A DNA stretch of 64,000 bases from Polymyxa betae A26-41 (GCA_003693705.1 RBZT01000146.1:58635-122634); one strand, 5' to 3'. Positions 6,136-62,153 are shown, numbered from the stretch's first letter. Notes: generated from the sequence alone by a model not told the origin. A program made the numbers and translations.

Positions 6136-6539
6136 TCTTTAATGATAATTGTAAGGTATCCAACATGCATGAGATATCATCACTAACTGATGAAACTAGA
6201 CCAGATTGGCTTACAACGATTAGAAAAAGGTCGTGATTGGTTTATTAAGCGCCATGCAGCTCAATAAACTGTCAATCAGAGGAAGTTAACAAATTTTGGA
6301 ATACCGGTAGGCTTATGCAACAAACATCACAAACTTTCCTCTACGGATTTTGTCACGAGCTCTAGACAAACAGCACCGATTGCATAAAAGGTTACCACAT
6401 TCGGAAGGACTTTTCCTCATTGATGACTCACGTTCGGGAAATCCTTAACAATGGCGTCATGGCGTAGTTCCGGTGGAATTTCAAGGCCTAACTGCTCAAA
6501 ACAGAATCACGAAAAGGTCTTTGACCACATTTATATCCC

Positions 6540-8018
6540 ATGAGAATCGGCTCTATATCTGGAATCGTCTCGGCGTGCCTTATTCTAAGCGCGCTCTCGC
6601 ATGCAGCTGACGCTCTCCGCGACGAAGACTTTCAGGGAGCAATTCAAAACCGCCATGAAAGCGCCGGCCCTTCCAGCTCTAACATGGCACAACCTTCAAG
6701 CTCGACTCCGAATGATGAAAAACAGCACCCAATAGACCATCATACGGGTTCTTCCACGAGTACTGTTGTTAGCAATACCAGCGTTTCTTCCATCTCTGCT
6801 ATCAGCAACGGAACCAATGGAAACCTTTCCACCCATGTCGTTTCCAACAACGGAAACAATATAATGCATGTCGATACAGATCGGAAGCCGTCGACGCCCA
6901 GCTCACCTGGAAGCGGACTGAAGCCATCGAGCCCCAGTCCGTCTACTCACGGTAATGGCGGCGACACGCCATCGACTGCGAAGCCATCCGCTGATCTCAA
7001 CGGCGGAATGAAACCATCCGCTCCGAGTTCGTTTCCAGATTATGTCGAACCGGGTTCTCACTCTGGCAAGGCCTCAAACCCGGATTCGTCAAGCTTGAAA
7101 AAATCGCAACATTCTGTTGAAGCTCCACATGGCCACGATGGATCTCGATCGTTTTCTTCTGGATCGGGCTTAAAGCCATCTAGTGTAAAACAAGAGTCTC
7201 CCTCTAGTAGCAGCTTGTCGCCCTCTGGCGGAATTCAAAGTGCAAAGCCCTCCTCCTCACGACAATCTCCTGATGATCATAGCGAGTCGCTTCCGCTTTC
7301 ATCAATCACGAATTCTGGTGCGAAGCCTGCCAATACGATGCCAGCAGCTGATCAATTTCCCGGCGAGCAAACTACCTCCGACTCGGCTTCGCCTAACGTC
7401 GCTAAACCAGCTGGCAATCCTCTCACGAACGCGACGATGACTAATGTGCCTGCTCCTGCAATTTCTCGTCCAACTTTACCTGTCTTTGACAAGACATCTG
7501 GAACGCCAAGCATTAAAAAGCCAGGAAAACGAATAACGACAACAACTGTGACAAGGAAGAAGAATTTACTCGGGAAAGTCGGCTCAGGTAGGGCATCGTT
7601 CAAACCTTCCTACCTGGCGCCAACGCCTTCACGAGGAAAGACTCCGATGTACTCTCCGCCAAGAACGCCTTCCACTAAACGAATTCCTCCTAATGGTCAC
7701 CCGCCGTTGAGAAAAACATCGACGCCGGCGCTCTACTCAAGACCTTCGTCGCCGAAGAGCTCAACTCTTTACCAGAACAAGCCTCGATCGCCGTCACCTG
7801 CCTTGTACTCGGTATCAAGACGAGCTCCGTCTCCTGTGTATTCAAACCCCGCTCCCCAGAAATCAACGAAAAAGTCAACAGACTACAAAGCTCCTACCCC
7901 GAAGAAGAACCAATCATACAAGGCTCCCAAAAAGTCTAGTAACAGCTCATCTGCAGAAGCAAAGTGTCTCTCTGCAAGTGCAATTGCCCTATTACTCACT
8001 GTTGGTCTTCTTTTCTAA
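6540..8018 (+). CDS. Intronless Ser/Pro/Thr-rich surface protein with signal peptide and predicted GPI anchor
   Basis: 492-aa ORF; hydrophobic N-terminus ending AHAADA; C-terminus NSSSAEAKCLSASAIALLLTVGLLF (small residues, spacer, hydrophobic tail); internal KPS and Tyr-containing repeats. Confidence 0.85.
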   Translation: MRIGSISGIVSACLILSALSHAADALRDEDFQGAIQNRHESAGPSSSNMAQPSSSTPNDEKQHPIDHHTGSSTSTVVSNTSVSSISAISNGTNGNLSTHVVSNNGNNIMHVDTDRKPSTPSSPGSGLKPSSPSPSTHGNGGDTPSTAKPSADLNGGMKPSAPSSFPDYVEPGSHSGKASNPDSSSLKKSQHSVEAPHGHDGSRSFSSGSGLKPSSVKQESPSSSSLSPSGGIQSAKPSSSRQSPDDHSESLPLSSITNSGAKPANTMPAADQFPGEQTTSDSASPNVAKPAGNPLTNATMTNVPAPAISRPTLPVFDKTSGTPSIKKPGKRITTTTVTRKKNLLGKVGSGRASFKPSYLAPTPSRGKTPMYSPPRTPSTKRIPPNGHPPLRKTSTPALYSRPSSPKSSTLYQNKPRSPSPALYSVSRRAPSPVYSNPAPQKSTKKSTDYKAPTPKKNQSYKAPKKSSNSSSAEAKCLSASAIALLLTVGLLF

Positions 8019-22947: not shown

Positions 22948-22964
22948 TAGGGTTTAGGGTTTGA
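22948..22964. repeat. Short interstitial telomere-like (TTTAGGG/telo-box) motif upstream of SEC15
   Basis: TAGGGTTTAGGGTTTGA; the identical 17-mer is at 57851-57867. Confidence 0.6.
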
Positions 22965-28405: not shown

Positions 28406-28911
28406 AATGCCGGAAATTGACAGTTTCAGGGATCCGGCTTAACGACGTCTTAACGCGAAAAGACGAATGTAGAGGTGCGTCACAGACTGTATCGAAAGTC
28501 TCTTTAAGTAGTTGTTGGCTGCGCTCTGTAAATCTCATGCTGATCTTCGTTACAATCAAGGAATGACCTCATTATCACATTAAAGTAAGGAAATGCTTTC
28601 AGATTGGAATGCTCGTTCGAAACCGTTTGTCAACAACACCTATAACTGAATTCAGTGTTACTATGGCAACGGCGCCGAATACACGCTTTAATGTTGTAGG
28701 AATTTAATAAAGCATGTCCCAGTTATTTAAAACGTTCGGTCTTTACTCCCCACTCCAGGTAAAGGCCGAGGCCGACAGTCAAAAGAGTGCGCTTGATTGA
28801 TCTTGGAACAATGGGGTGACCCACGGCCCCAAGCTGTAGCTTCGCAATCCGACTATGGGCAAGGGTTTTGATCCCATAGCCCATAGGTCATATTTGACTT
28901 GATTGTCTTTC

Positions 28912-30018
28912 ATGGCCATATTACAGCTCGTGGCCATTCTTATCGTGGCTCTATGCGCACAGACGGCAACTAGTGCTGAATCCGACCGTGGCAAAATCAA
29001 GCAGCCCTCTGCCTTCATCAAAGATCGACCCATCCGAAGTCTGGCCGACAGCTCCTGTTGGGCTGACGCCGATGATAACGCACCATTGTTGTTGGACCGC
29101 CTTCGAAGGTCGTTAAAGGATTTCCCAGAGGAATCGTCACAAGAAAACGATGATTCATCTTCCTCAAATGCGACCGAACGTCGTAAAGGCAAGCAGCAGC
29201 CATCCACCACGACCAGGAACAAATCTCACCCCTCTTCGGCGATGTCCCGGGGTGACCAACCTGCTCAATTAGTTTTGTCAAATTCTAGGCCGAATCGACC
29301 GTCCACATTCAAAACTCCTTCTGTTAAGCTGAATCGCGCATTAATGGGAGTTTCGAGAGCCTGTAGAATCACGCAAAAGGTTCTTATACCAGATCCTTGT
29401 CCACCAACGATCTCGATTCCCTATCCGATATTCTTGGAAATTTTTCGTCGGGATCATAAAAGTGTTCCTCATGGGAACATCGAAATAACTGATTTCCCCG
29501 AATCCGCCAAGAAGATTCCGAAGGAGGACCGTTTTAAGTGTCTGGATAGGAACATTGATTTGGGCGCATCAAGGCAGCAGAAAATATCTTGGTGGTTGGA
29601 TCACGATCGCTATGATACTGAAGAAAGGGAAAGACCTTCTGACAACCCGAACCGGGATGTGCTGGCCCCCGAGCAGATCGACAACTTGTTTTCTGAGCGA
29701 ACCAGACTTGCACCTATCAAGCTTCGACGGTCAAGTATCTTCCTGCCCTCTACTTATTTCAAATCGCGCTTCAATGCGTTGATGACGTGCATTGAGAAAG
29801 ATCCTCTTCACGTGAAGCCGTGCTTCCAAGATCGTGCCAATGTGAAAGGGAAAGCTCCAGCTCCTTCGGCAGAACAAGCAGCTCTGATACAAACAAGGGG
29901 AATAAGCTCGGCTTCTGGGTTGAGTCGCGGCAACAGGATGGTGTTTTCGACCAATGGCAGCAGAAATGTCTCTAGACGCCGAATCAAACCGTATGCTATG
30001 TTGAGATCAATGTTGTAA
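28912..30018 (+). CDS. Intronless orphan secreted protein (candidate effector)
   Basis: Signal-peptide-like MAILQLVAILIVALCAQTATSA; long uninterrupted ORF; basic patches ERRKGK and RRRIKP. Confidence 0.75.
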   Translation: MAILQLVAILIVALCAQTATSAESDRGKIKQPSAFIKDRPIRSLADSSCWADADDNAPLLLDRLRRSLKDFPEESSQENDDSSSSNATERRKGKQQPSTTTRNKSHPSSAMSRGDQPAQLVLSNSRPNRPSTFKTPSVKLNRALMGVSRACRITQKVLIPDPCPPTISIPYPIFLEIFRRDHKSVPHGNIEITDFPESAKKIPKEDRFKCLDRNIDLGASRQQKISWWLDHDRYDTEERERPSDNPNRDVLAPEQIDNLFSERTRLAPIKLRRSSIFLPSTYFKSRFNALMTCIEKDPLHVKPCFQDRANVKGKAPAPSAEQAALIQTRGISSASGLSRGNRMVFSTNGSRNVSRRRIKPYAMLRSML

Positions 30019-32062: not shown

Positions 32063-32853
32063 ACAAATACGAAGCTCCCGTTCCTTTGGATCGCACATAT
32101 AACAACATCGTTATTGTACTATATAAATATTAACAAACTCGGTTCTCCACTTCCTGCGTCTCTGCTAATCTGCCATATCTAGGTAGGCTATATGGATGAT
32201 ATTACACCAGCTTTTTCCAGGTAAAATGGCTCACACTGTTCGCCCTCATATTTAGATCTTCCACTCGTTTGCTACATTTTAATCAATTGTATTGCTTCTG
32301 TTACAAAATCTCAGTAGATAACACATTTGCATCCTCGTGTCAGAAAATAACTCGTTCATGCATCATGGGCTCATGGTCTCCCACCCGTTCCACGACAGCT
32401 TCGACATAAATGGCGGTTGATCAAACCTCATCGCAGAAAATCCGATTTTGGAGTAACATTTACATGTCAAACCAGCATGTATCGGATCCGTGATCTTACA
32501 ATTTTCAGACATAAACATTGTTAGGCTTTGTTCGATTTATGCCTTATTAGATTGTTAACTTCGCAAATTTTCATTAGCTTTAATGGCTTGCGATATAGCA
32601 GAGCTGGACCACTCATTCATCGCCACTGTCAACATAGTGCTATAACTGACAAGAGAGCTTGCGGGATCTAAATGCTGCAGCGATTAGCAAATATAATGGT
32701 TGAGCCGATGTTAGCCTTAAAACGCATCGTGATGCATTCCTTATCATTAAAAAAACCGACAACCGCCAGATCTCTGTTGGAGGGTTTGATCGAGATCGCT
32801 ACCTGAAACTGCACCAGGATTTTTTCTCGCAAAGTGATATCTCTATAAGAAGG

Positions 32854-34952
32854 ATGGCGCCAGCATATATTGCTTTCCTAATAGCATTAGCAGCATCAGT
32901 AAGAGATGATTCTAACATTGGAAAATGGACAGCATCAGCATGGTCACGATGCTCGTCGCCTTGTGGGCCTGGAACTGCTTATCGGCACGTTGAATGTCGC
33001 TCACAGATTACAAACCAGATCTTACCGCATGAAGGATGCTCTGCTCCTAAGCCACCTACAAAAAAATTCTGTTCGTCGCTCGAATGTCAATGGGGCTGTA
33101 CGCTGAAATCTGTGAAGCCAGTGTGCTTAGCTGCGTCTTTAAAACAGGTCAAAAAGGCAGTCATGGACAGGTTGGTTGCATGACATGATATCTACAGGTT
33201 CCAGATGATTTCTGTAATATGCAGAAGCATCCCGGCAACTTCACTGACGATTTTATCTGCCCATATGGACATGTAGAATTATGGCAGCCGCTGGATCTTC
33301 GTTCTAGTCACGATGGTCAGTCAGAATCGTCGTCATTTTCTTGGATGATTCTCTCGCCATGGTCGTCTTGCTCGCCCCATTGCGGATCGAATCGATTCTC
33401 ATGGCGCCACGTCGCTTGTGTCGACAGCACCGGCGGCATCGTCGATGACACCTTTTGCTCTGGGTCGGCACCGTCCGATCGCCGGTCGTGCCCTGGGACA
33501 ATCGAATGCTCAGTCCAGCATGGTCGATGTCGGCCAAACGATGGCAATGACGTTGCCGACTACTGGTGCTTCAACAAAACAGGTAATAACATTATGAGAG
33601 ATGGTTTATTTGTTACTCTTCGTCTTGTCGCTTCTTGAGCGGCCTCTCCACATGTCAGAATTTTGGCAGGCATTAGGGTTTTATCATTCAGAAACTTTAT
33701 TCGCCATTTGATGATGTGGTAAAGTCTTTTTATTCTCTTTGAATGTTTCCGTTCTTTCAGGCTGCCGCTTCGTTTACACAGCGCCGGCAACTGTTCCATT
33801 TCAACCATCTGAGTGCTGTAATGACGAATCCTAATAGGCCTGAACAGCTGGAGAATCGAATCCGATTGGTCGCCGTGCTCCATCCCAACGTGGTTAATGA
33901 CGACTCGGCGCGTCTATTGTCGAGACCCTCCTTGCGAACCATCAGATCGACCCAGCAATATCCAATCATGCGCCTTATTGCCGCCCTTAACCTACCAGCT
34001 GGTTAGCTCAGACGAAGCGCCCCTCTGCACCAACGCCTGCGGCCCCGGCGTCATCTCCAATCCATACCAATGTCGCTTCCAAAACTTGGATCTCGATGAT
34101 GAATATTGCCAAGCTGCAGGTCGTCATTACTTTTTTTGGTTTCGTTTACATCGTTCGTTGTCGCCGTCACATTGTTGGGTTTCTGCTTTCATTTCTGCCA
34201 TTGCAGATTTAACCGAACAATAGGTGTCCCCGATCCGGTCCCAATTCCTTGTAAAACTCAGACCTGCATGTCGTCGAAGCCCTGCGATCTCCATGCTCGG
34301 TTGAACATCTCGATTCCGCCCGGTGCCTTTGCAAACGATGACCAGATTCGGTTGCAGCTTGAGCTCGATCTGAAAGCGGCGCTGCCGAACGCAACCAGCG
34401 TCTTGGTTTCTGTGATTCGACCTATTGCTGCTGACGACGTCGAGGCTGAGTTCTCGGTGTCATGCATGGATGGCTCCGTCTCGGCTGCCGACTCGATCGA
34501 GATGCAAATGTCGGACCCCGGCAGCGCTTTTCGTCGCGGTGTTGTCACGCGAGGCAGCAACCAGCACCTTGAGATTTTCGCATTTCAGCAGCCGGCGCCG
34601 GTATCATCCCAGGACGCCATGCAAAAGGTGTCGTCGGACGATCCAATTTATAGTAGGAGCGTATTTGCATAAGTCTATCAGCTTTGCTGAAATTTTTGTG
34701 AAAGCATTCAAAATGGCGACGCTTTATATCGCGTTGGCGGTATTCGTTGCCGTCTTCGTTGTGATCCGATACGGTGTTCGAAGGGCGGCCGCCAAGGCCA
34801 AGATCCAGCCCCCAATCAATACGATGTTTTCAGTGAACGAATTGGACCCATACACAGCTCAAGCAACAGCCAATCTCAAGTCTCAATCGCAAACCGTTGT
34901 TCCGGGAACGCGTCGAAATTCCATCACTGTTCCCGGGCCGTCTGGATCATGA
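32854..34952 (+). CDS. Type I membrane protein with ~4 thrombospondin type-1 (ADAMTS-like) repeats
   Basis: Signal peptide; WTASAWSRCSSPCGPG..RHVEC; WSSCSPHCGS..RHVAC; WSPCS..RRVYC; CTNACGPG; TM LYIALAVFVAVFVVI followed by RYGVRR. Confidence 0.88.
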
Positions 34953-54491: not shown

Positions 54492-55655
54492 ATGGTTCGC
54501 TTCCTGGAATATCTGGAGCCATGCCCGGAGCCCGTCCTGATCCGCTCCATTGCTGAATTCCAGTACAAACCTGCCGAGCAGGCCGGCCGTGCCTACTATG
54601 AACGCCTTCATGGCAAGCGCCAGACGACAACGCGACGAATCGTCTCGAAGAAGGCCGTCTCCAAGCCGAAGCTGAAAATGAACGTTGACCTAAAAGATTT
54701 CTACGGGCTGCTTCGGGTGCCGATTTCGGCCAGTACGGAAGAGATTCGTAAATCGTATCGAGAGGTGTCTCTTCTCTATCACCCTGATAAGAACCCTGAT
54801 GCCGAACACATCTATAAGGCGATCCAGGAAGCACACACGACCCTCACAGACCAGCGCCGTCGTCGCGTTCACGATTCAACGTTGCCGTTCGACGACTCGA
54901 TCCCGGCCGAGATGAACTCCATCTCGGAGGCTGCCTTCTACAAAACGTTCGGACCCGTCTTCGAACGCAACGCCTGGTTCTCAGAAATCCAGCCGGCACC
55001 ATTGTTGGGCGACAAGGATTCGTCGTTTGCCGATGTTGATGTCTTCTACGACTTCTGGTTCGGATTCAAATCTTGGAGGGATTTCTCAGCTGATTGCGAG
55101 CACAAACCTGAACTTGCTGAGAATCGTGAAGAACGGAGATGGATGGAGAAGGAGAACCAGAAGGTTACCAATGCTAAAGTCAAAGCTGAATCTGCTCGTG
55201 TCCGAAAGCTTGTTGACCGCGCGTTCAAACTCGACCCGCGTGTCAAGGCCCAGCGTGCTGTAGAGAAAGCTGAAAAATTAGCCAGGAAAAAGGAGAAGGC
55301 AGCTGCTCGCTATGGCGGCCCTTCGAGGAAAGAGGTAGAAGATGCTGAGAAGGCTCGCAAGGAAGAGGAAGCTCGTAAGGCGGCTGAAGCCCAGGCTGCT
55401 TTGCAAGCCGAGCGACAGAACGCCAAGAAGGCGGCCCAAGACGAGAAGCGATTAGGACGGACGCTGCGAAAGGGCATTCGGGAGACGATGCAGGAACGAT
55501 TCAACGAGATGTTCGAGCGGAACGGCTGGCAGATTGACGACCTGTTTTCGGGTCTGAGCATCACCGATCTGCAGGAATTCGCCACCAAGGTCAAGGGCGA
55601 AGAGACATCTGCTTTGGAGAACATCAACCAACATATCAATCGTGTATATAAATAA
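54492..55655 (+). CDS. ZUO1: Zuotin/DNAJC2 ribosome-associated J-protein, intronless, lacking SANT domains (in-frame upstream ATG at 54351)
   Basis: J-domain DFYGLL..YHPDK; FDDSIP; FGPVFERNAWFS; FYDFWFGFKSWRDFS; AENREERRWMEKEN; LVDRAFKLDPRV. Confidence 0.95.
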   Translation: MVRFLEYLEPCPEPVLIRSIAEFQYKPAEQAGRAYYERLHGKRQTTTRRIVSKKAVSKPKLKMNVDLKDFYGLLRVPISASTEEIRKSYREVSLLYHPDKNPDAEHIYKAIQEAHTTLTDQRRRRVHDSTLPFDDSIPAEMNSISEAAFYKTFGPVFERNAWFSEIQPAPLLGDKDSSFADVDVFYDFWFGFKSWRDFSADCEHKPELAENREERRWMEKENQKVTNAKVKAESARVRKLVDRAFKLDPRVKAQRAVEKAEKLARKKEKAAARYGGPSRKEVEDAEKARKEEEARKAAEAQAALQAERQNAKKAAQDEKRLGRTLRKGIRETMQERFNEMFERNGWQIDDLFSGLSITDLQEFATKVKGEETSALENINQHINRVYK

Positions 55656-55710: not shown

Positions 55711-55828
55711 AGGAGGCCACTCTCTCACATTTTCAAGTGCACTCCTTCTAAGTTTCACCAGATGATTCATTATAGGAGGCCGCTCTCTCACATGTCTCAA
55801 GTTCACTCCTTCTAGCAGAGGATTCATT
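55711..55828 (+). repeat. Imperfect tandem duplication of a ~55-60 nt unit
   Basis: AGGAGGCCACTCTCTCACATTTTCAAGTGCACTCCTTCTA..GATTCATT at 55711 and AGGAGGCCGCTCTCTCACATGTCTCAAGTTCACTCCTTCTA..GATTCATT at 55774. Confidence 0.9.
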
Positions 55829-57068
55829 GATTATACTCGATATAAAGGCATTTCTAACATATTAAAGGCTTGGGTAGTCGGGAGAAAACAGAGCCATGGA
55901 CGATAAAATAGAATCCAGACAGATATCGTATGTAGCTGTAAAGCACAAGCACGATTTCGACGGGTGCAGCCGGAGGGACTGTGAATACAGGTAGGGTGGT
56001 CTTTCCAACAAAGAAAACCTGTTTTCCTTTATAGAGCAGCAAGCGTTCGGCAGAGCAATGCGCGCTATTCGATGAATGCGAGACAGAACGCTCATGCAAT
56101 TTTTTCGATTTGAACAGCTGCCAGGCCTCTCGTTTCGAATTTTTAGCTCGTGAGCCACAGTAGAGGCGCAGGAGTCGCTATTTAACAACAACAGCAGGTC
56201 CAGGTCTCCATCTTAAACGGATTCTGCGAGATCTCGAACGAGATGCAATGCTGAATCTATGGACTGTCGAAATGAAGGTCGCTGCGTCGTCAAACAAATA
56301 ATGTCATTCTAGAATCTAGGGCAGGCAGTACGACACAAACGTATTCAACGTTCATAACGAGCTCGGTTACGAAAAGCGCTAAATGGGACAACCAACTCTG
56401 TGATCAATATCTGGAAAGAAAGTGAACTCCCTTCTAGCTCCAAGCAAGCGCAATCCTGAAGTTCAGTGTTCAACAAAATTCATAGCAGTCGCATCTAGAT
56501 CGAAGCTAACATGGAACAGCTTTCGTGATAATCTGGCAATAGCAAAACGCTGGTCAAATGAGTGGCAGCATCGCTATTTACAAATCTGCTGAGATTATTA
56601 TTGATTGAAAGAAGCCCAAATGTGATGTCCCTAGAAACATGTAAGCAGATCAATCTTTGATAGAATATAACTGTATCCTTTGGCATTAAATTCCCTAAGA
56701 TCGAAGAAGTATAGATGCAGGCTTGCTCAACTTGCTATTCGCTGAAGAAATCCGGGCATCATGTAATTCATTGTTGAACGAGTAAACAACATTAATATGA
56801 TGACCAGGCTGCATTGATATATCATGCCTGTGATACTGAGATGAGTTTACAGCAGTGCTGCAAATCATCAATTTCAAGTTCTGCGGTGTAACTCACAAAA
56901 GCGATCGAGGTCGATATCCCTCGAACTCCTCTCTATAGAAATGGTTCCTTTCTCAAGTTGCCTTCCAGAGTTCGATGAAGAGTGGCACTAGTACGACCCC
57001 GACCCCTGAAACATCGGTGACCCAGTTCAGGATCGATAAGTACAGGAGCCGGTGGCGGCTGACAAGCG

Positions 57069-60017
57069 ATGGCCGTGGAGGGAGCGGCGGCAGCGGCGGC
57101 GCCGGATCCTGGAAACGAGACGACGACGTCAGCGGCGGCGCCACCCGTGACCCGGCCTGCGGTCCTATGCCGGTCGTATACGACGCTTTTGTCGGCGACA
57201 GCAGCCGGAGCCCCAGCAGCGGCCCCAAATCCGGCCCCGGCACCCCCACCCCATATGAAAGCCACCACCTATCATCTGACTCGTTACTATCAGAAGTGTA
57301 TGGGACCACTGAACGCCTCCGATCCGACGAGATATCGGCGTTAACGTTACGCTCAGGTCAGGAACTGAAACCCGTGAAATGGGCTCGAAATCGATCGCCT
57401 CTGAAGACGAAACCCGCCGCTTCAGAGAAACCCGAACGCGATACCGTTGCCGCCGACAGCGAAACGTAATGTCGGCCTGCGCTGTAACGTGACCGGGATC
57501 CCGACCCTTGATATTAGGAAGGCCAGGTTCAATACTCCCATAAAAAAAACGGACCCGGAACGGTTACTGCTGCTCAAACGTCTCCGTCTCCGTATGTAAT
57601 ACAGGCCCGCGTGTCGATTGCGTTACATGGCGATAGGTCAGGAAGCCCGTCATGACCAGGCCCCGATCCTGTTCGATCTAGTGAAACGATCAGTGCGAGC
57701 CCTGGTTTTCACCAAGGCCGGCAACAGGTAACGTAACCCACCGATTCAACGTTCAGTTGCGTATCACAGCATCTGCTACATTTCTCTATCAGTTGTGATT
57801 CTGCAAATGACATGTTTCGAGCTCGCACGTTTCCGGTTTTGTGTTTTCGTTAGGGTTTAGGGTTTGAACCACTTGATATTATGTGTTGATAGTCTGCAAT
57901 ACAGTTTCCGGTCCATCATGGACGATGAAGACGTACGTCTGTACACAGAGTTGGTCCAGCGGGCCATGGGTCTCGGCTTGGACCAGGTCATACCGGCCCC
58001 GACCGGAACCCCGCTCCATAAACGCAGTCCGACAGGGGTCGCTCCTGCCACCACAAACGTAACGTCCTGTCCAAATCGATTCTGTTACCAGATGTCTTTT
58101 GAGTTCGCATACTGTTACCGCCACGTGGGCTGGACTACGTTACGTTTGTCGTTACTGGTTTATGTTACCATAAAATAGGACATCATCGAATTGTTGTTGG
58201 TTACAGCTGTTACGGCGACGCTATTTCATTTGGTACTGCTTTAAGTACGACCCGGAACTAATATCTGTACTGATAGAGCGGGTTACTCTCGGCTACTGTC
58301 ACATCGACAGATGCGGATAAGACTGTCGGACTGGATAGGGTTTCCAAGGTCCCTCTCATACTCAACGTGGATTCAACGCTCTTATCCGATGACCCGTTCT
58401 ATGACTTTCTATTACATCATCTGCCGAAATCAGCGAGACTTTATGTAAAACCCTAACCCTTACTCTAAACCCCAAAAATCTGAGCTTCGTTTTAGGCTAA
58501 AGGATCCAAGCCGGTATTCATGATTCGGCGTCCGCCACGGTCTTCCTCAACCTCTACTCAGGTAACGTCATCTACGCCAAGGCATCGCCGTCATCAAACC
58601 TCCTTGTCGAAACGACATGATGTCAAGCTGCCGAGTATCGATGTAACGCTTGGTAACGTTACCGGGCAAGCTCCACTGACCAGCTTCGTTACAGCTGCTT
58701 GAGACCGTCGATGAACGCGTGCAGAACGACGCACATCCGCAAACTCCACGCACCTCTACAGCCAACACCGATCATTCACGGCGTCAAGGCGAAGAGAGTT
58801 CTGAACAATCGGTAACATAATCCGTAATGTCGATGCCGCTAGTGACATTTACAGGTAACGTACTCTGACACGACCGCAGCCGCGCTGACCATCGTCTTCT
58901 CAGTTCCGCAAATCGTGCATGAAATTCGATCAGATGCGAATCAGACTTAGCCGACGCTTAGAGCAACGTGTGGCGGAGTTCGTGATTTGTCTGCCTGGTA
59001 ACGTGATCCCCTGGCTGACTACATACAGGTTCGAATCGGCCCGCTCTGCATCGAATCGGGCAAAGATTCAAGTCGCCGACCATCAGTTCTCGTTTCGTTC
59101 CTCGGTAATCTGCTGTCACTTTTCCTTGAAATTGTGGTTCTACGTTTCAGTTACAGCCGCCTTTCTGTGCCATCGTTCACATCTCCCCGCTAACGTTACA
59201 TCAGTTTAGGTTACGACATTTACGCTACTACACGTTTATGTCACTACAACTTCACGTTACTACAGGTCTATGTTTCTGATATGTTGTGCAGAGCCGTGAT
59301 ATGAGTGAGATGCGTCAACGTGCCGAGATGGATCAGTCCGCCCTGCGAGCTCTACGTCTGGAACATTTCCGTAAACTGGATCAGGTGATGCAGCAGGTCC
59401 GCGGGCATGATAATGGTAATGGACGCAGAGATCTCACTCCCAATGAATGCGCTATTCTACAGACTATTGCCGGGTATCTTATTCATAATGTTACCTGAAC
59501 GTGTTATGTATCTGACCGTATATAAAGTTACCTTCATTCGCCGTATGGCGGCGTACTAAACCATCACAGCGCGGCGCACTTTCTCGAAGCTGTGGATCAC
59601 GAAATTCTCAACGATCCCGCTGTACTCAAGATCTTGCTGGAATTCATTTCGAAGGTGGTATCGCTGTGACAGTTACGGACTTCGCCACTCATTCATGACG
59701 TTACAGGTCGGGATCAGTGAGAACGATTTCCGTGCGGCATTGGCCGCCTCACAACACGAATTTCCCGCCAGCCTATTCGATCTGGCAAACAGTATGTTCG
59801 GCAGTGGTCACGTTACCTGTCAGTTAACGGGACATTACGTTACACAGTTGTGAAGAACAACGCCGTGGCGACCATGATGGGCGGGCTGAGATCGGCGGGT
59901 CTAGCAGGACGTCTGCTTCGGAAACGTAAAGACCAGCGCCTGTCGTTTCGGCGTCACGACAGTACCGATCTGGATGCGGTTTCCCGTCCAATGCCGCGAA
60001 CCCATCATCAACGGTAA
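57069..60017 (+). CDS. Multi-exon orphan gene with GTAAC/GTTAC-rich introns
   Basis: Splicing by eye gives MAVEGAAAA..., DPERLLLLKRLRLRQEARHDQAPILFDLVKR, DDPFYDFLLHHLPK, NECAILQTIAG|YLHSPYGG, LLEFISK|VGISENDF, ...RLLRKRKDQR...HHQR*. Some middle exons are unresolved. Confidence 0.65.
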
Positions 60018-60030
60018 CATTTTAGAGCAT

Positions 60031-60036
60031 AAAAAA
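60031..60036 (-). terminator. RNA polymerase III terminator (T6) of the tRNA-His gene
   Basis: TTTTTT on the minus strand 4 nt after the tRNA discriminator. Confidence 0.8.
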
Positions 60037-60040
60037 GTAA

Positions 60041-60112
60041 TGCAGACACTGAGAGTCGAACTCAGGTGATCAGCGCCACAAGCTGGTATCCTGCCAACTA
60101 GATGATGTCTGC
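60041..60112 (-). tRNA. trnH-GUG: tRNA-His (anticodon GTG), intronless
   Basis: Minus strand GCAGACA TC ATCTAGTTGGCAGGAT A CCAGC TTGTGGC GCTGA TCAC CTGAG TTCGACT CTCAG TGTCTGC A: 7-bp acceptor stem, perfect T arm, A discriminator, no encoded CCA or G-1. Confidence 0.93.
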
Positions 60113-60142
60113 ATATGCTGCGTGACGTTCATTGTTCTCGAT

Positions 60143-61760
60143 TTATGAAGATACCGCAACTGTATCAAGTCAAATTTGAGAGAAGTTTCTAAATAAACAC
60201 GTCTCGGTTGGTCGAACGCCTTAACTATTCAATACTAAGTTTCTCAGATCCTCTCATTCACGCTGATATCTTTTGCTTTAAGCCACGATTGACCAAAACC
60301 CTAACCCGCTCTGATGGTTTATTCGGGCTTGTCAAAGACTCACAGCTCTATCAGATCGTTATCGAGCAGTTTCGCGATATCATCAGAATACCGAATTTCG
60401 GTTATCGTCTTTGAACATGTCGGATTGTTCTCGCGTATGCAACAGGAATGAGAAGATGGTTTCATTGTTGACCGTGCGCTTCATACTAAAGACCCGAAAT
60501 TAGTGGAACTGTTTTTTATTGTGCAACATCATAATCAAAGATGGTTTTGAAGGATTCTTGATACAGCATTCGTTGATGTTAAAGACACCATGGTTATAAT
60601 GATCCAGTTATATCAACAATCTCTATAGATGACCATTGCAGAATTTTATCATTGGCTGGGCGAGCAGGAATCATTCCAAAAATGGTTTATTCGCTCAACT
60701 AAATTTCATCGTGACTGTATCTTGAAGCGAATGACAATATTGGCTTAAATATAAAGCATTGATGAAAAACAACGTAAATGACGTTTTGAGCCGCTTGTAC
60801 GCCTTCCACGATCAGCACTTGCTGCATAAGCAAATAAGTTAAGTTGAAGCAAGGCATTGGTCATCTCCGATACATCAAGAAAGGAAATTGAGAACTTTCG
60901 AACCGTTTTGCTTCGTTTTTGATATCGTTAATTGCTTCAGGTCACTCTCAAGCCTCATAATTATTCGTTCATAGTGAATTGACTTCGTGTCAGAATGTTT
61001 CCATTTACGACCGGCGATTATGGACATTGCTGAGCCCGAAGCGAACGCTGCCTATCCAGCAATGCCTTCCGATCTCTTTCCCATCACCAAGGCAATAGAA
61101 CGATCCAAACGCTACACCGACTCCACAAGATGGAAAAGCAACAACAGCGCAGCTCAACTACTTTGACGATATTTTTCTGCTCAAATCAATCTGCCGATCG
61201 CGTCCAAAAGGGAGAAAGTGATCGAAGTCTGGGATGAATTTGCTGAACGGGTTCGCAGAATTCCCTGTTTCGACGTCCAGAAGGATGGTCGCGGATGTCA
61301 ACTGAAGGTTGAGAGAATCCTCGGCGAGATGACAATCAGGAAGCGCCTGGTGGTGTTGAGGAATACAACGATCACGAAATGCATGAAAATTTAAAATCGA
61401 CAGTAGAATCACCGATCACATCACGACGACAGCTGCGGCCAGCGAACAAGCCAACGCGACATGTGCCTTACTCCGGCTGTGTCCATTGGGCGAGTACATC
61501 AGCTCAGGAGCGATGACAAGAACTGTATCGCGTTTAAAGACATAAAACACAGAGCGCAATATGAGCGAATCTCAACTGTAAGAAACAGAAACTGATGCCG
61601 CAGCGATTACGGTCGCCTTGAATCGCAGCGGCTTCATGAAAGCGATCGTCGTCGAAACGAACACAAGCTGAATTTCGCCGAGCGGCTCTTGTCGAGAAAT
61701 TTGTCTGAAAGAATTGAGTTGTTTTATCTCGGGTTTGCCTCTGGAAAATGATTTCATTCT
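60143..61760 (-). pseudogene. Possible decayed cyclic-nucleotide-regulated (CNG/KCNH-type) channel gene
   Basis: Broken fragments in expected order: LNLQLTSATILLDVETG, KFIPDFDHFLPF, hydrophobic AALLLLFHLV, then FKTIFDYDVAQ*KTVPLISGL. Many stops and frameshifts. Confidence 0.3.
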
Positions 61761-62153
61761 GTTTTCAGACGCAGCAACGAGACTCTAAACCCAACATATT
61801 GAAATTTTCGTTACAATCTCGTGAGCTATTCGGGTAGTACGCTCAAGCCGAACCCGGATCACACTACTCATATGGGTCACATCACCAACGCAGTGTTCAG
61901 CAACAGACTTCCTTTTCTAATCGTAGAAATAGTTCTCTCTGTGTTTTCGACTTCGCCTAATTTACAGTCTAGATAAGTCATATAAAGACTTTTTAAACTA
62001 GAAACGCTGTGAATGAAAAACCGTACCTCACATTGATTTTAGAGAAGAGGCAGGGATCACGTGATTTGGGTCTAAGACAGAATACGGAAAACTACGATAA
62101 AATGATAAAATGAACATGAGAGGACGGGTTTAGGGGTAGAACGAACAGCTAGT

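What the first reader, a model, noticed from the sequence alone, without database searches (positions are those of the whole stretch)
57280..60020. GTAAC/GTTAC-saturated island: introns carrying the reverse complement of their own 5' splice site
Seen: by hand I count ~35 GTAAC or GTTAC in ~2.75 kb, versus ~5 expected at uniform base composition, mostly in introns. Many donors are GTAAC (57728, 58059, 58562, 58812, 58998). Many acceptors end GTTACAG, GTTACCAG or GTTACACAG (58084, 58200, 58688, 59700, 59839). A perfect palindrome GGTAACGTTACC lies at 58652-58663. Introns elsewhere in the window lack this pattern. Inference: intron ends could pair as terminal inverted repeats (introner-like origin or structure-guided splicing), or the motif is a dense protein-binding or modification array marking a mobile or specialised chromatin domain. 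This is the best candidate for an undescribed system here.
Basis: partly seen in the sequence, partly recalled or inferred. Interest (0 to 1): 0.75.

Follow-up and report, generated by a model that had tools for sequence, protein, structure and literature searches.

The report
Palindrome-packed introns of one protist gene
One spliced gene of a likely plant-parasitic protist carries a short mirror-image DNA word at about thirty times the background density in its introns, likely as docking sites for a gene-regulating protein and not as the paired ends of mobile introns.

Summary
The count is right: 35 GTAAC/GTTAC in 2.74 kb against 2.2 expected. Spliced contigs from three studies show one 16-exon gene for a 584-aa protein with no relative found, probably in a plasmodiophorid; 31 of 35 copies are intronic. 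The word is the strong half of the dyad GTAACGTTAC, found equally in both orientations (7 and 8 seven-mers).

The end-pairing or introner reading fails. Only 1 of 15 introns has both ends, none passes 5% in an end-pairing shuffle test, and the introns share no end-to-end similarity. The inverted-repeat look probably arises because GT at donors and YAG at acceptors fix the word's orientation.

Best reading (0.45): an intron-housed array of sites for a dimeric DNA-binding protein; the same dyad core is a Candida Rtg1-Rtg3 site. An RNA-level splicing signal remains open (0.25), since intron 11 hides a frameshifting cassette exon. The scan earlier noted GTAACG-rich introns in another gene of this genome, which I could not check. 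No genome or ortholog was available.

The parts
57069..60069 (+). 16-exon gene for a 584-aa protein, no relative found; coincides with the motif island
   Evidence: 14 joints in spliced contigs: 13 in X3, X7 and X12, the last in X3 and X12 only, none in DNA run X2; frame intact after joining. Start codon is inferred; contigs begin at 57043-57145.
57298..57356 (+). intron 1 (59 nt), GTTAC 11 nt from its 3' end
57466..57517 (+). intron 2 (52 nt), mid-intron near-perfect dyad at 57484
57592..57636 (+). intron 3 (45 nt), GTTAC 15 nt from its 3' end
57728..57904 (+). intron 4 (177 nt), GTAAC donor with a second copy behind it; tandem telobox-like repeat at 57850-57865
58059..58276 (+). intron 5 (218 nt), GTAAC donor plus 7 GTTAC; predicted, unseen cassette exon 58179 or 58207 to 58232
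   Evidence: joint; cassette predicted only
58445..58495 (+). intron 6 (51 nt), no motif, telobox-like word at 58449
   Evidence: the split into introns 6 and 7 is my GT-AG placement around the 16 letters seen between the joint's sides
58496..58513 (+). 18-nt micro-exon, phase 0-0
   Evidence: (table 5c)
58514..58561 (+). intron 7 (48 nt), no motif; the next exon begins with GTAAC (58562)
58643..58694 (+). intron 8 (52 nt), the only intron with GTAAC donor and GTTACAG acceptor; holds the perfect palindrome 58652-58663; folds with z -2.0
58812..58903 (+). intron 9 (92 nt), GTAAC donor; internal AG|GTAAC at 58854|58855 divides it into 43 + 49 nt (possible recursive site, untested)
58978..59028 (+). 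intron 10 (51 nt), mid-intron GTAAC at 58998
59105..59291 (+). intron 11 (187 nt), 4 GTTAC; alternatively spliced
59205..59239 (+). alternative cassette exon: 35 nt from 59205 (frameshift, early stop) or 30 nt from 59210 (in frame, 10 aa)
   Evidence: joints in X3 only, not in X5; translations
59474..59527 (+). intron 12 (54 nt), mid-intron GTTAC; a second GTTAC straddles the acceptor
59655..59706 (+). intron 13 (52 nt), 2 GTTAC, ends GTTACAG
59792..59847 (+). intron 14 (56 nt), 2 GTTAC, near-perfect dyad at 59807
60014..60065 (+). intron 15 (52 nt), GTAAC donor; last copy of the island
   Evidence: X3, X12
60040..60113 (-). tRNA-His(GTG) gene, antisense, overlapping the last acceptor and stop codon
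   Evidence: ARAGORN, Rfam RF00005 52.3 bits

Best explanation
The introns of this one gene carry a dense array of the dyad GTAACGTTAC (strong half GTAAC, loose second half), which is likely a set of binding sites for a dimeric DNA-binding regulator of a small group of genes. Shown: the gene, its introns, the enrichment and the dyad symmetry. Inferred: the copies sit in introns because coding exons and a short divergent promoter leave little other free sequence. Inferred: at intron ends the splice consensus sets the orientation (GT makes GTAAC cheap at donors, YAG makes GTTACAG cheap at acceptors), which gives the look of terminal inverted repeats. Inferred and untested: an ACGT-core reader of bHLH-ZIP or bZIP type would coat the gene body and tune its transcription or co-transcriptional splicing.
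For: GTAACGTTAC is the top of all 512 palindromic 10-mers (13 matches at up to 2 mismatches in the gene, 11 in the other 61 kb). The seven-mer occurs 7 times as GTAACGT and 8 times as ACGTTAC, against 3 elsewhere. Flanks mirror with orientation: GT follows 7 of 11 GTAAC but 1 of 24 GTTAC (P 0.0003), and the inner dyad flank is present in 15 of 35 copies here against 3 of 48 outside. A single-stranded GUWAC reader would not give this. 18 of 35 copies are mid-intron. A second promoter-type word, the telobox 7-mer, is also enriched (4 in the gene, 8 outside, P 0.0007), and intron 4 shares 17 nt with the 5' flank of the gene at 23 kb. The same dyad core (TGTAACGTTACA) is used as the Rtg1-Rtg3 site in Candida albicans (PMC5067116; passages and section 7 read). 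An earlier, unreviewed note reports GTAACG-rich introns in another gene of this genome, a lead only.
Against: No binding protein is identified and no binding is tested. The array stops at the intron-bearing part: 1 copy in the 216-bp upstream gap and 1 in exon 1. Exons are only weakly enriched (5 in the spliced frame against 2.0-2.3 expected from codon shuffles, P 0.04-0.05). AC before GTTAC (8 of 24) against GTAAC (2 of 11) is not significant (P 0.45). Orientations come in blocks (10 runs, P 0.013), which a strand-blind site does not predict. 13 of 35 copies sit at or within 15 nt of used splice sites. No 10-bp or nucleosome-scale periodicity (P 0.93 and 1.0). Two of the four telobox hits are one tandem and one is exonic. 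Conservation could not be tested.
Confidence: 0.45

Rival explanations
1. RNA-level splicing control: GUAACG is a gene-specific donor variant and ACGUUAC copies are its cis-complements or sites of an RNA-binding protein. They would mask or release donors and set inclusion of a frameshifting cassette exon.
For: The island starts 15 nt before the first donor and ends at the last donor. 5 of 15 donors are GTAAC against 0 of 15 predicted background introns. 13 of 21 intronic GTTAC have an AG within 15 nt (P 0.025). Intron 11 is alternatively spliced, with GTTAC 10 nt before two alternative acceptors. Donors of introns 5 and 8 pair with a GTTAC copy in local folding. Orientation blocks (P 0.013). 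The introns are less T-rich and more GC-rich than background (31% against 39% T; GC P 0.014).
Against: Only 4 of 35 (span 150) or 8 of 35 (span 1000) copies pair with another copy in the folded pre-mRNA. Extended flank complementarity (P 0.024) is matched by same-orientation GTTAC pairs that cannot pair (P 0.034). Most introns with GTTAC lack a GTAAC donor. Motif density is about the same in the alternatively spliced intron as in short constitutive ones. The cassette was seen in 1 of the 2 spliced runs laid.
Confidence: 0.25
2. No function: a local sequence-generating process (template switching at quasi-palindromes, short duplications, or relief from a genome-wide avoidance of the word) filled these introns with the word.
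For: GTAAC is mildly under-represented elsewhere (48 against 58-65 by Markov models, rank 21-117 of 512). Copies are degenerate and irregularly spaced. One weak 16-nt tandem array lies in intron 11.
Against: About 30-fold enrichment with a sharp consensus in 13 of 15 otherwise unrelated introns, while four neighbouring multi-intron genes hold 0 to 4 copies. No tandem unit carries the word.
Confidence: 0.15
3. The word is a target for a DNA modification or a chromatin-domain mark, like the linker motifs of teleost hypomethylated domains.
For: The dyad has a central CpG, and island introns are CpG-rich (65 against 43 per kb). A related 6-mer, GCTAAC, marks accessible linkers in medaka domains (PMC5607494; passages read).
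Against: No 140-220 bp periodicity. CTAAC itself is not enriched (3 against 3.4). CpG is not depleted elsewhere in the window (o/e 0.8-1.3), so there is no sign of a methylated background.
Confidence: 0.1
4. Introner-like origin: the introns are remnants of a mobile element with GTAAC/GTTAC terminal inverted repeats.
For: Intron 8 has complementary ends and folds with z -2.0. 4 of 15 junctions have a direct repeat of 4 nt or more.
Against: Ends uncoupled (1 of 15). No end-to-end similarity among the 15 introns or to the rest of the window. Mean junction repeat 1.9 nt against 1.8 in background and in the null. Half of the copies are mid-intron.
Confidence: 0.05

Closest known systems
Rtg1-Rtg3 site TGTAACGTTACA of Candida albicans GAL promoters (Dalal et al. 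2016, PMC5067116; passages and section 7 read)
   Same: Identical 10-bp dyad core; shown there to be bound by a transcription-factor pair and sufficient for induction. That Rtg1-Rtg3 are bHLH-ZIP proteins is recalled.
   Different: Upstream sites in a yeast promoter, against 35 mostly half-site copies across the introns of a protist gene. No Rtg-like reader is identified here; the match is probably convergent.
Linker 6-mers of teleost hypomethylated domains, top word GCTAAC (Nakamura et al. 2017, PMC5607494; passages read)
   Same: A short TAAC-containing word concentrated in defined gene domains, with no known reader for most such words.
   Different: There the words are spaced at about 200 bp and tied to hypomethylation; here no periodicity was found, CTAAC is not enriched and methylation is unknown.
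Introners (Gozashti et al. 2022, 10.1101/2022.06.06.494994; passages read)
   Same: Some carry terminal inverted repeats that include splice sites.
   Different: Defined by families of four or more introns similar from end to end; these introns share only 10-14 nt words.
Telobox/TRB elements of Arabidopsis (PMC11287191; passages read)
   Same: The TAGGGTT word occurs in this gene's introns and at a neighbouring gene's 5' flank.
   Different: TRB proteins are plant-specific and act mostly at promoters; nothing here shows such a reader or Polycomb marking.

Membership tests
Introner elements | Four or more introns with sequence similarity reaching both boundaries (BLAST E up to 1e-5) | tested here: not met
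   All-vs-all of the 15 introns with flanks gave only the shared 18-nt exon between introns 6 and 7; short 10-14 nt words only. Window only, not the genome.
Introner elements | Terminal inverted repeats at both ends of the same intron | tested here: not met
   1 of 15 introns has both ends, 1.7 expected; longest end complement 2-6 nt.
Introner elements | Target-site duplications | tested here: not met
   Mean junction repeat 1.93 nt against 1.80 in 15 predicted background introns and 1.75 in the null; 4 of 15 reach 4 nt or more, null share 10%.
Introner elements | Presence/absence of the intron among relatives | not testable with these tools
   No ortholog found; no genome held.
Structure-guided splicing by end pairing | Intron ends pair better than shuffled controls | tested here: not met
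   0 of 15 introns at the 5% level; lowest shares 0.06 (intron 6, no motif) and 0.12 (introns 1, 8).
U2-type spliceosomal introns | GT-AG ends removed precisely from the RNA | tested here: met
   13 joints read GT..AG; the fourteenth resolves into two GT-AG introns around an 18-nt exon.
Dimeric transcription-factor site array (Rtg1-Rtg3-like) | Dyad-symmetric consensus in both orientations | tested here: met
Dimeric transcription-factor site array (Rtg1-Rtg3-like) | Bound by a sequence-specific protein, with an effect on transcription | not testable with these tools
   Needs pull-down, ChIP or DAP-seq.
Teleost-type linker motifs | About 200-bp periodic spacing | tested here: not met
   Best period 171 bp, P 1.0 against random intronic positions; one gene, low power.
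RFX X-box (half-site RGYAAC, recalled) | Both RGTAAC and RGCAAC half-sites enriched | tested here: not met
   RGCAAC 3 against 3.8 expected.

The most novel reading that the evidence does not exclude
Plasmodiophorids mark a class of intron-rich genes by writing one dyad word through nearly every intron, chosen so that it doubles as splice donor (GTAAC) and acceptor-proximal sequence (GTTACAG). One factor, or a factor plus cis-pairing, would then couple gene-body chromatin to stage-specific splicing, including a frameshifting cassette exon. This would be a gene-class code overlaid on splice sites, in a lineage with no described cis-regulatory motif in the papers I searched.
Probability: 0.15. 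Interest if true: 0.75.

Novelty: new variant of a known kind. Interest (0 to 1): 0.45.

Why it matters
Plasmodiophorids are obligate root parasites whose gene regulation is hard to study (own knowledge). My searches showed no description of an intronic motif class in them. It is also a caution: a palindromic word laid over GT-AG consensus mimics terminal inverted repeats without any mobile origin.

Tried and rejected
Genome-wide counts: impossible, no assembly is held.

Protein identity: 14 of 16 exons scanned singly against Pfam, none reached a cut-off (best E 0.1). Homolog searches with exons 12 and 6 found nothing. The representative search with exon 13 gave 2 hits, both to repeat-rich proteins, judged artefacts. 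The metagenome scan gave 4 loci with 21-29 aa matches in GC-rich contigs, judged spurious. ESM Atlas gave weak or unnamed hits. PDB best E 0.27. Single-exon queries are weak, so 'orphan' is provisional. A by-eye bHLH resemblance in exons 12-13 found no support.

No RNA holder was listed by record; X3, X5, X7 and X12 are taken as RNA because they skip GT-AG segments that DNA run X2 keeps. Raw run X20 laid 0 reads (no test). X13 and X2 showed no differences over the gene where they cover it, so gave no conservation signal.

Antisense splicing at minus-strand GTAAC: no CT..AC joint among the 11 joints in 57600-59420. Branch-point reading: the mirrored flanks and positions do not fit, and CTAAC is not enriched. 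PAR-bZIP dyad GTTACGTAAC ranks second and far weaker (7 against 9). No Rfam RNA other than the tRNA. No tandem unit carries the word. Ab-initio prediction failed for three background genes and failed or was partial for two more, which limits the background set. Six phage or bacterial GTAAC-N-GTTAC notes and two similar ones are spaced sites in unrelated DNA and were set aside.

Full report
Observation. The window holds 83 GTAAC/GTTAC; 35 fall in 57280-60020 (24 GTTAC, 11 GTAAC) and 48 in the other 61 kb. The expectation from the rest of the window is 2.2, Poisson P about 1e-29; the seven-mer GTAACGT/ACGTTAC occurs 15 times against 3. No equal-sized stretch upstream holds more than 5. The count and the palindrome at 58652-58663 are right.

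What the island is. No genome is held. The neighbouring zuotin-like gene's best hit is Spongospora subterranea at 63% identity, so the organism is probably a plasmodiophorid other than that species. Contigs of runs X3, X7 and X12 (three studies, kind not on record) skip 14 segments that DNA run X2 keeps: 13 in all three runs, the last in X3 and X12. Thirteen read GT..AG. One has 16 letters between its sides, which I resolve into two GT-AG introns around an 18-nt exon. Joining gives an unbroken 584-aa frame from 57069 to a stop at 60067-60069. The island therefore equals one 16-exon gene: its first copy lies 15 nt before the first donor and its last is the last donor. Densities are 24.9 per kb in introns, 2.3 in exons and 0.79 elsewhere. 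13 of 15 introns carry at least one copy. Shuffling each intron with its dinucleotides kept gives mean 5.5, maximum 13 in 1,000, against 30 observed. Four neighbouring multi-intron genes hold 1 in 2,800 bp, 4 in 4,361, 0 in 1,608 and 3 in 3,138. Of 28 introns predicted ab initio elsewhere I used 15 that looked reliable: 1 copy in 787 bp and no GTAAC donor. One dropped intron holds a GTTAC.

Three of five named donors and three of five named acceptors are real. By position the 35 copies are 5 donors (all GTAAC), 8 within 15 nt of a used acceptor (all GTTAC, including one straddling an acceptor and two at alternative acceptors), 18 mid-intron (13 GTTAC, 5 GTAAC; bias P 0.10) and 4 exonic.

End pairing and introner origin fail. 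Five introns have a GTAAC donor, five a GTTAC in the last 15 nt, and only intron 8 has both (1.7 expected). In folding, 0 of 15 introns pair their ends better than 95% of shuffles; only intron 8 is unusually stable (z -2.0). The introns share only 10-14 nt words and fail the end-to-end similarity that defines introners in Gozashti et al. (passages read; test). Junction direct repeats average 1.93 nt against 1.80 and 1.75 in controls, though 4 of 15 reach 4 nt or more.

The word is a dyad. Oriented alike, both classes extend to GTAACGT(T/A)AC. GTAACGTTAC is the most enriched of 512 palindromic 10-mers: 13 matches at up to 2 mismatches against 11 outside. The seven-mer is split 7 to 8 between orientations. 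GT follows 7 of 11 GTAAC and 1 of 24 GTTAC (P 0.0003). The mirror test, AC before GTTAC, is 8 of 24 against 2 of 11 and not significant (P 0.45). Together the inner flank is present in 15 of 35 copies here and 3 of 48 outside. This points to a reader that is blind to strand, or to pairing. My inference is that a dyad laid over GT...YAG must appear as GTAAC at donors and GTTAC near acceptors, which explains the inverted-repeat look. The telobox 7-mer (name from PMC11287191, passages read) is also enriched, 4 against 8 outside (P 0.0007), although two hits are one tandem and one is exonic. The same dyad core is the site used for Rtg1-Rtg3 in Candida albicans (PMC5067116; passages and section 7). 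That shows such a word can be a transcription-factor site; it does not show that this one is.

Results that favour RNA. Run X3 shows alternative splicing inside intron 11: skipping (depth 32), a 35-nt cassette 59205-59239 that shifts the frame to an early stop (joints at depth 14.5 and 13.9), a 30-nt in-frame form from 59210 (5.0), and a partial joint that suggests an acceptor at 59265 (5.9). X5 shows only skipping; contig depth is a poor measure of level. Intron 5 has a similar predicted layout, not seen in contigs, and intron 9 has an internal AG|GTAAC that would split it into 43 + 49 nt. Exons 6-9 are all phase 0-0. 13 of 21 intronic GTTAC have an AG within 15 nt (P 0.025). Orientations come in blocks (P 0.013). 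The upstream gap and exon 1 hold one copy each. Against this, only 4 to 8 of 35 copies pair with another copy in the folded pre-mRNA, and the excess flank complementarity (P 0.024) is equalled by same-orientation pairs that cannot pair (P 0.034).

Protein. Single-exon searches found no family or relative. These are weak tests, and the full spliced protein was not searched against any outside library.

Print and earlier notes. A full-text search for the 10-mer gave 5 papers, of which I opened one; the others were seen as listings. Searches on plasmodiophorid introns and motifs, on TAACGTTA or GTAACG with introns and on palindromic intronic motifs showed nothing like this in the listings. Passages of PMC4815078 and PMC13746701 describe no such motif. 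Bulman et al. 2007 on Plasmodiophora introns appears only as a reference and was not read; the Polymyxa genome papers that I recall were not seen; no supplements were opened. The teleost linker motifs (PMC5607494, passages) are an analogy, but no periodicity was found here. I could not check it; if true, it argues for a gene class and against a one-off. Gene labels such as Sec15-like or AP-2 mu-like for background genes are recalled from their translations, not from calls.

Verdict. A real, strong, gene-bounded enrichment. Not introners and not general end pairing. Most likely an intron-housed array of protein-binding sites (0.45), with RNA-level splicing control (0.25), no function (0.15), a modification or chromatin mark (0.10) and introner origin (0.05) as rivals. 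Interest 0.45.

Noticed in passing
window 60040-60113 (-): A tRNA-His gene lies antisense across the last intron's acceptor and the stop codon of the motif-rich gene; it is multicopy in the DNA run (depth peak and loose ends).
   Followed up: partly
window 58812-58903: Intron 9 is two intron-sized halves (43 + 49 nt) joined at AG|GTAAC; a possible recursive splice site or 5-nt micro-exon, not seen in contigs.
   Followed up: partly
window 58179-58232: Predicted cassette in intron 5 with two acceptors (54 nt in frame, hydrophobic; 26 nt with a stop), mirroring the observed cassette of intron 11. X5 has an unspliced contig over 58059-58222.
   Followed up: partly
window 55780-56830: A transcribed, spliced region (joint near 56455-56510, CT..AC on the + strand, so probably minus-strand) with no long frame, divergent from the motif-rich gene; two similar ~60-nt stretches at 55713-55815.
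   Followed up: partly
window 54492-55655: Intronless zuotin-like gene of 387 aa without the C-terminal Myb/SANT domains that the 543-aa Spongospora hit carries; run X12 differs from it at 9 of 1,194 bases.
   Followed up: no
window 22948-22964, 57850-57866, 58447-58459, 60295-60307: Telomere-like TTTAGGG/AAACCCTA words at a gene's 5' flank and inside introns 4 and 6; 12 telobox 7-mers in the window, 4 in this gene.
   Followed up: partly
window 6525-8018, 28903-30018, 32704-34952: Long frames with signal-peptide-like starts (a Ser/Pro-rich protein, a 371-aa frame, a thrombospondin-like Cys motif by eye); possible secreted or surface proteins.
   Followed up: no
window 61325-61661: Loose ends and a 289-nt CT..TC joint in X7 and X2, suggesting a repeat or paralogous copy next to a minus-strand spliced transcript (60990-61970).
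   Followed up: no
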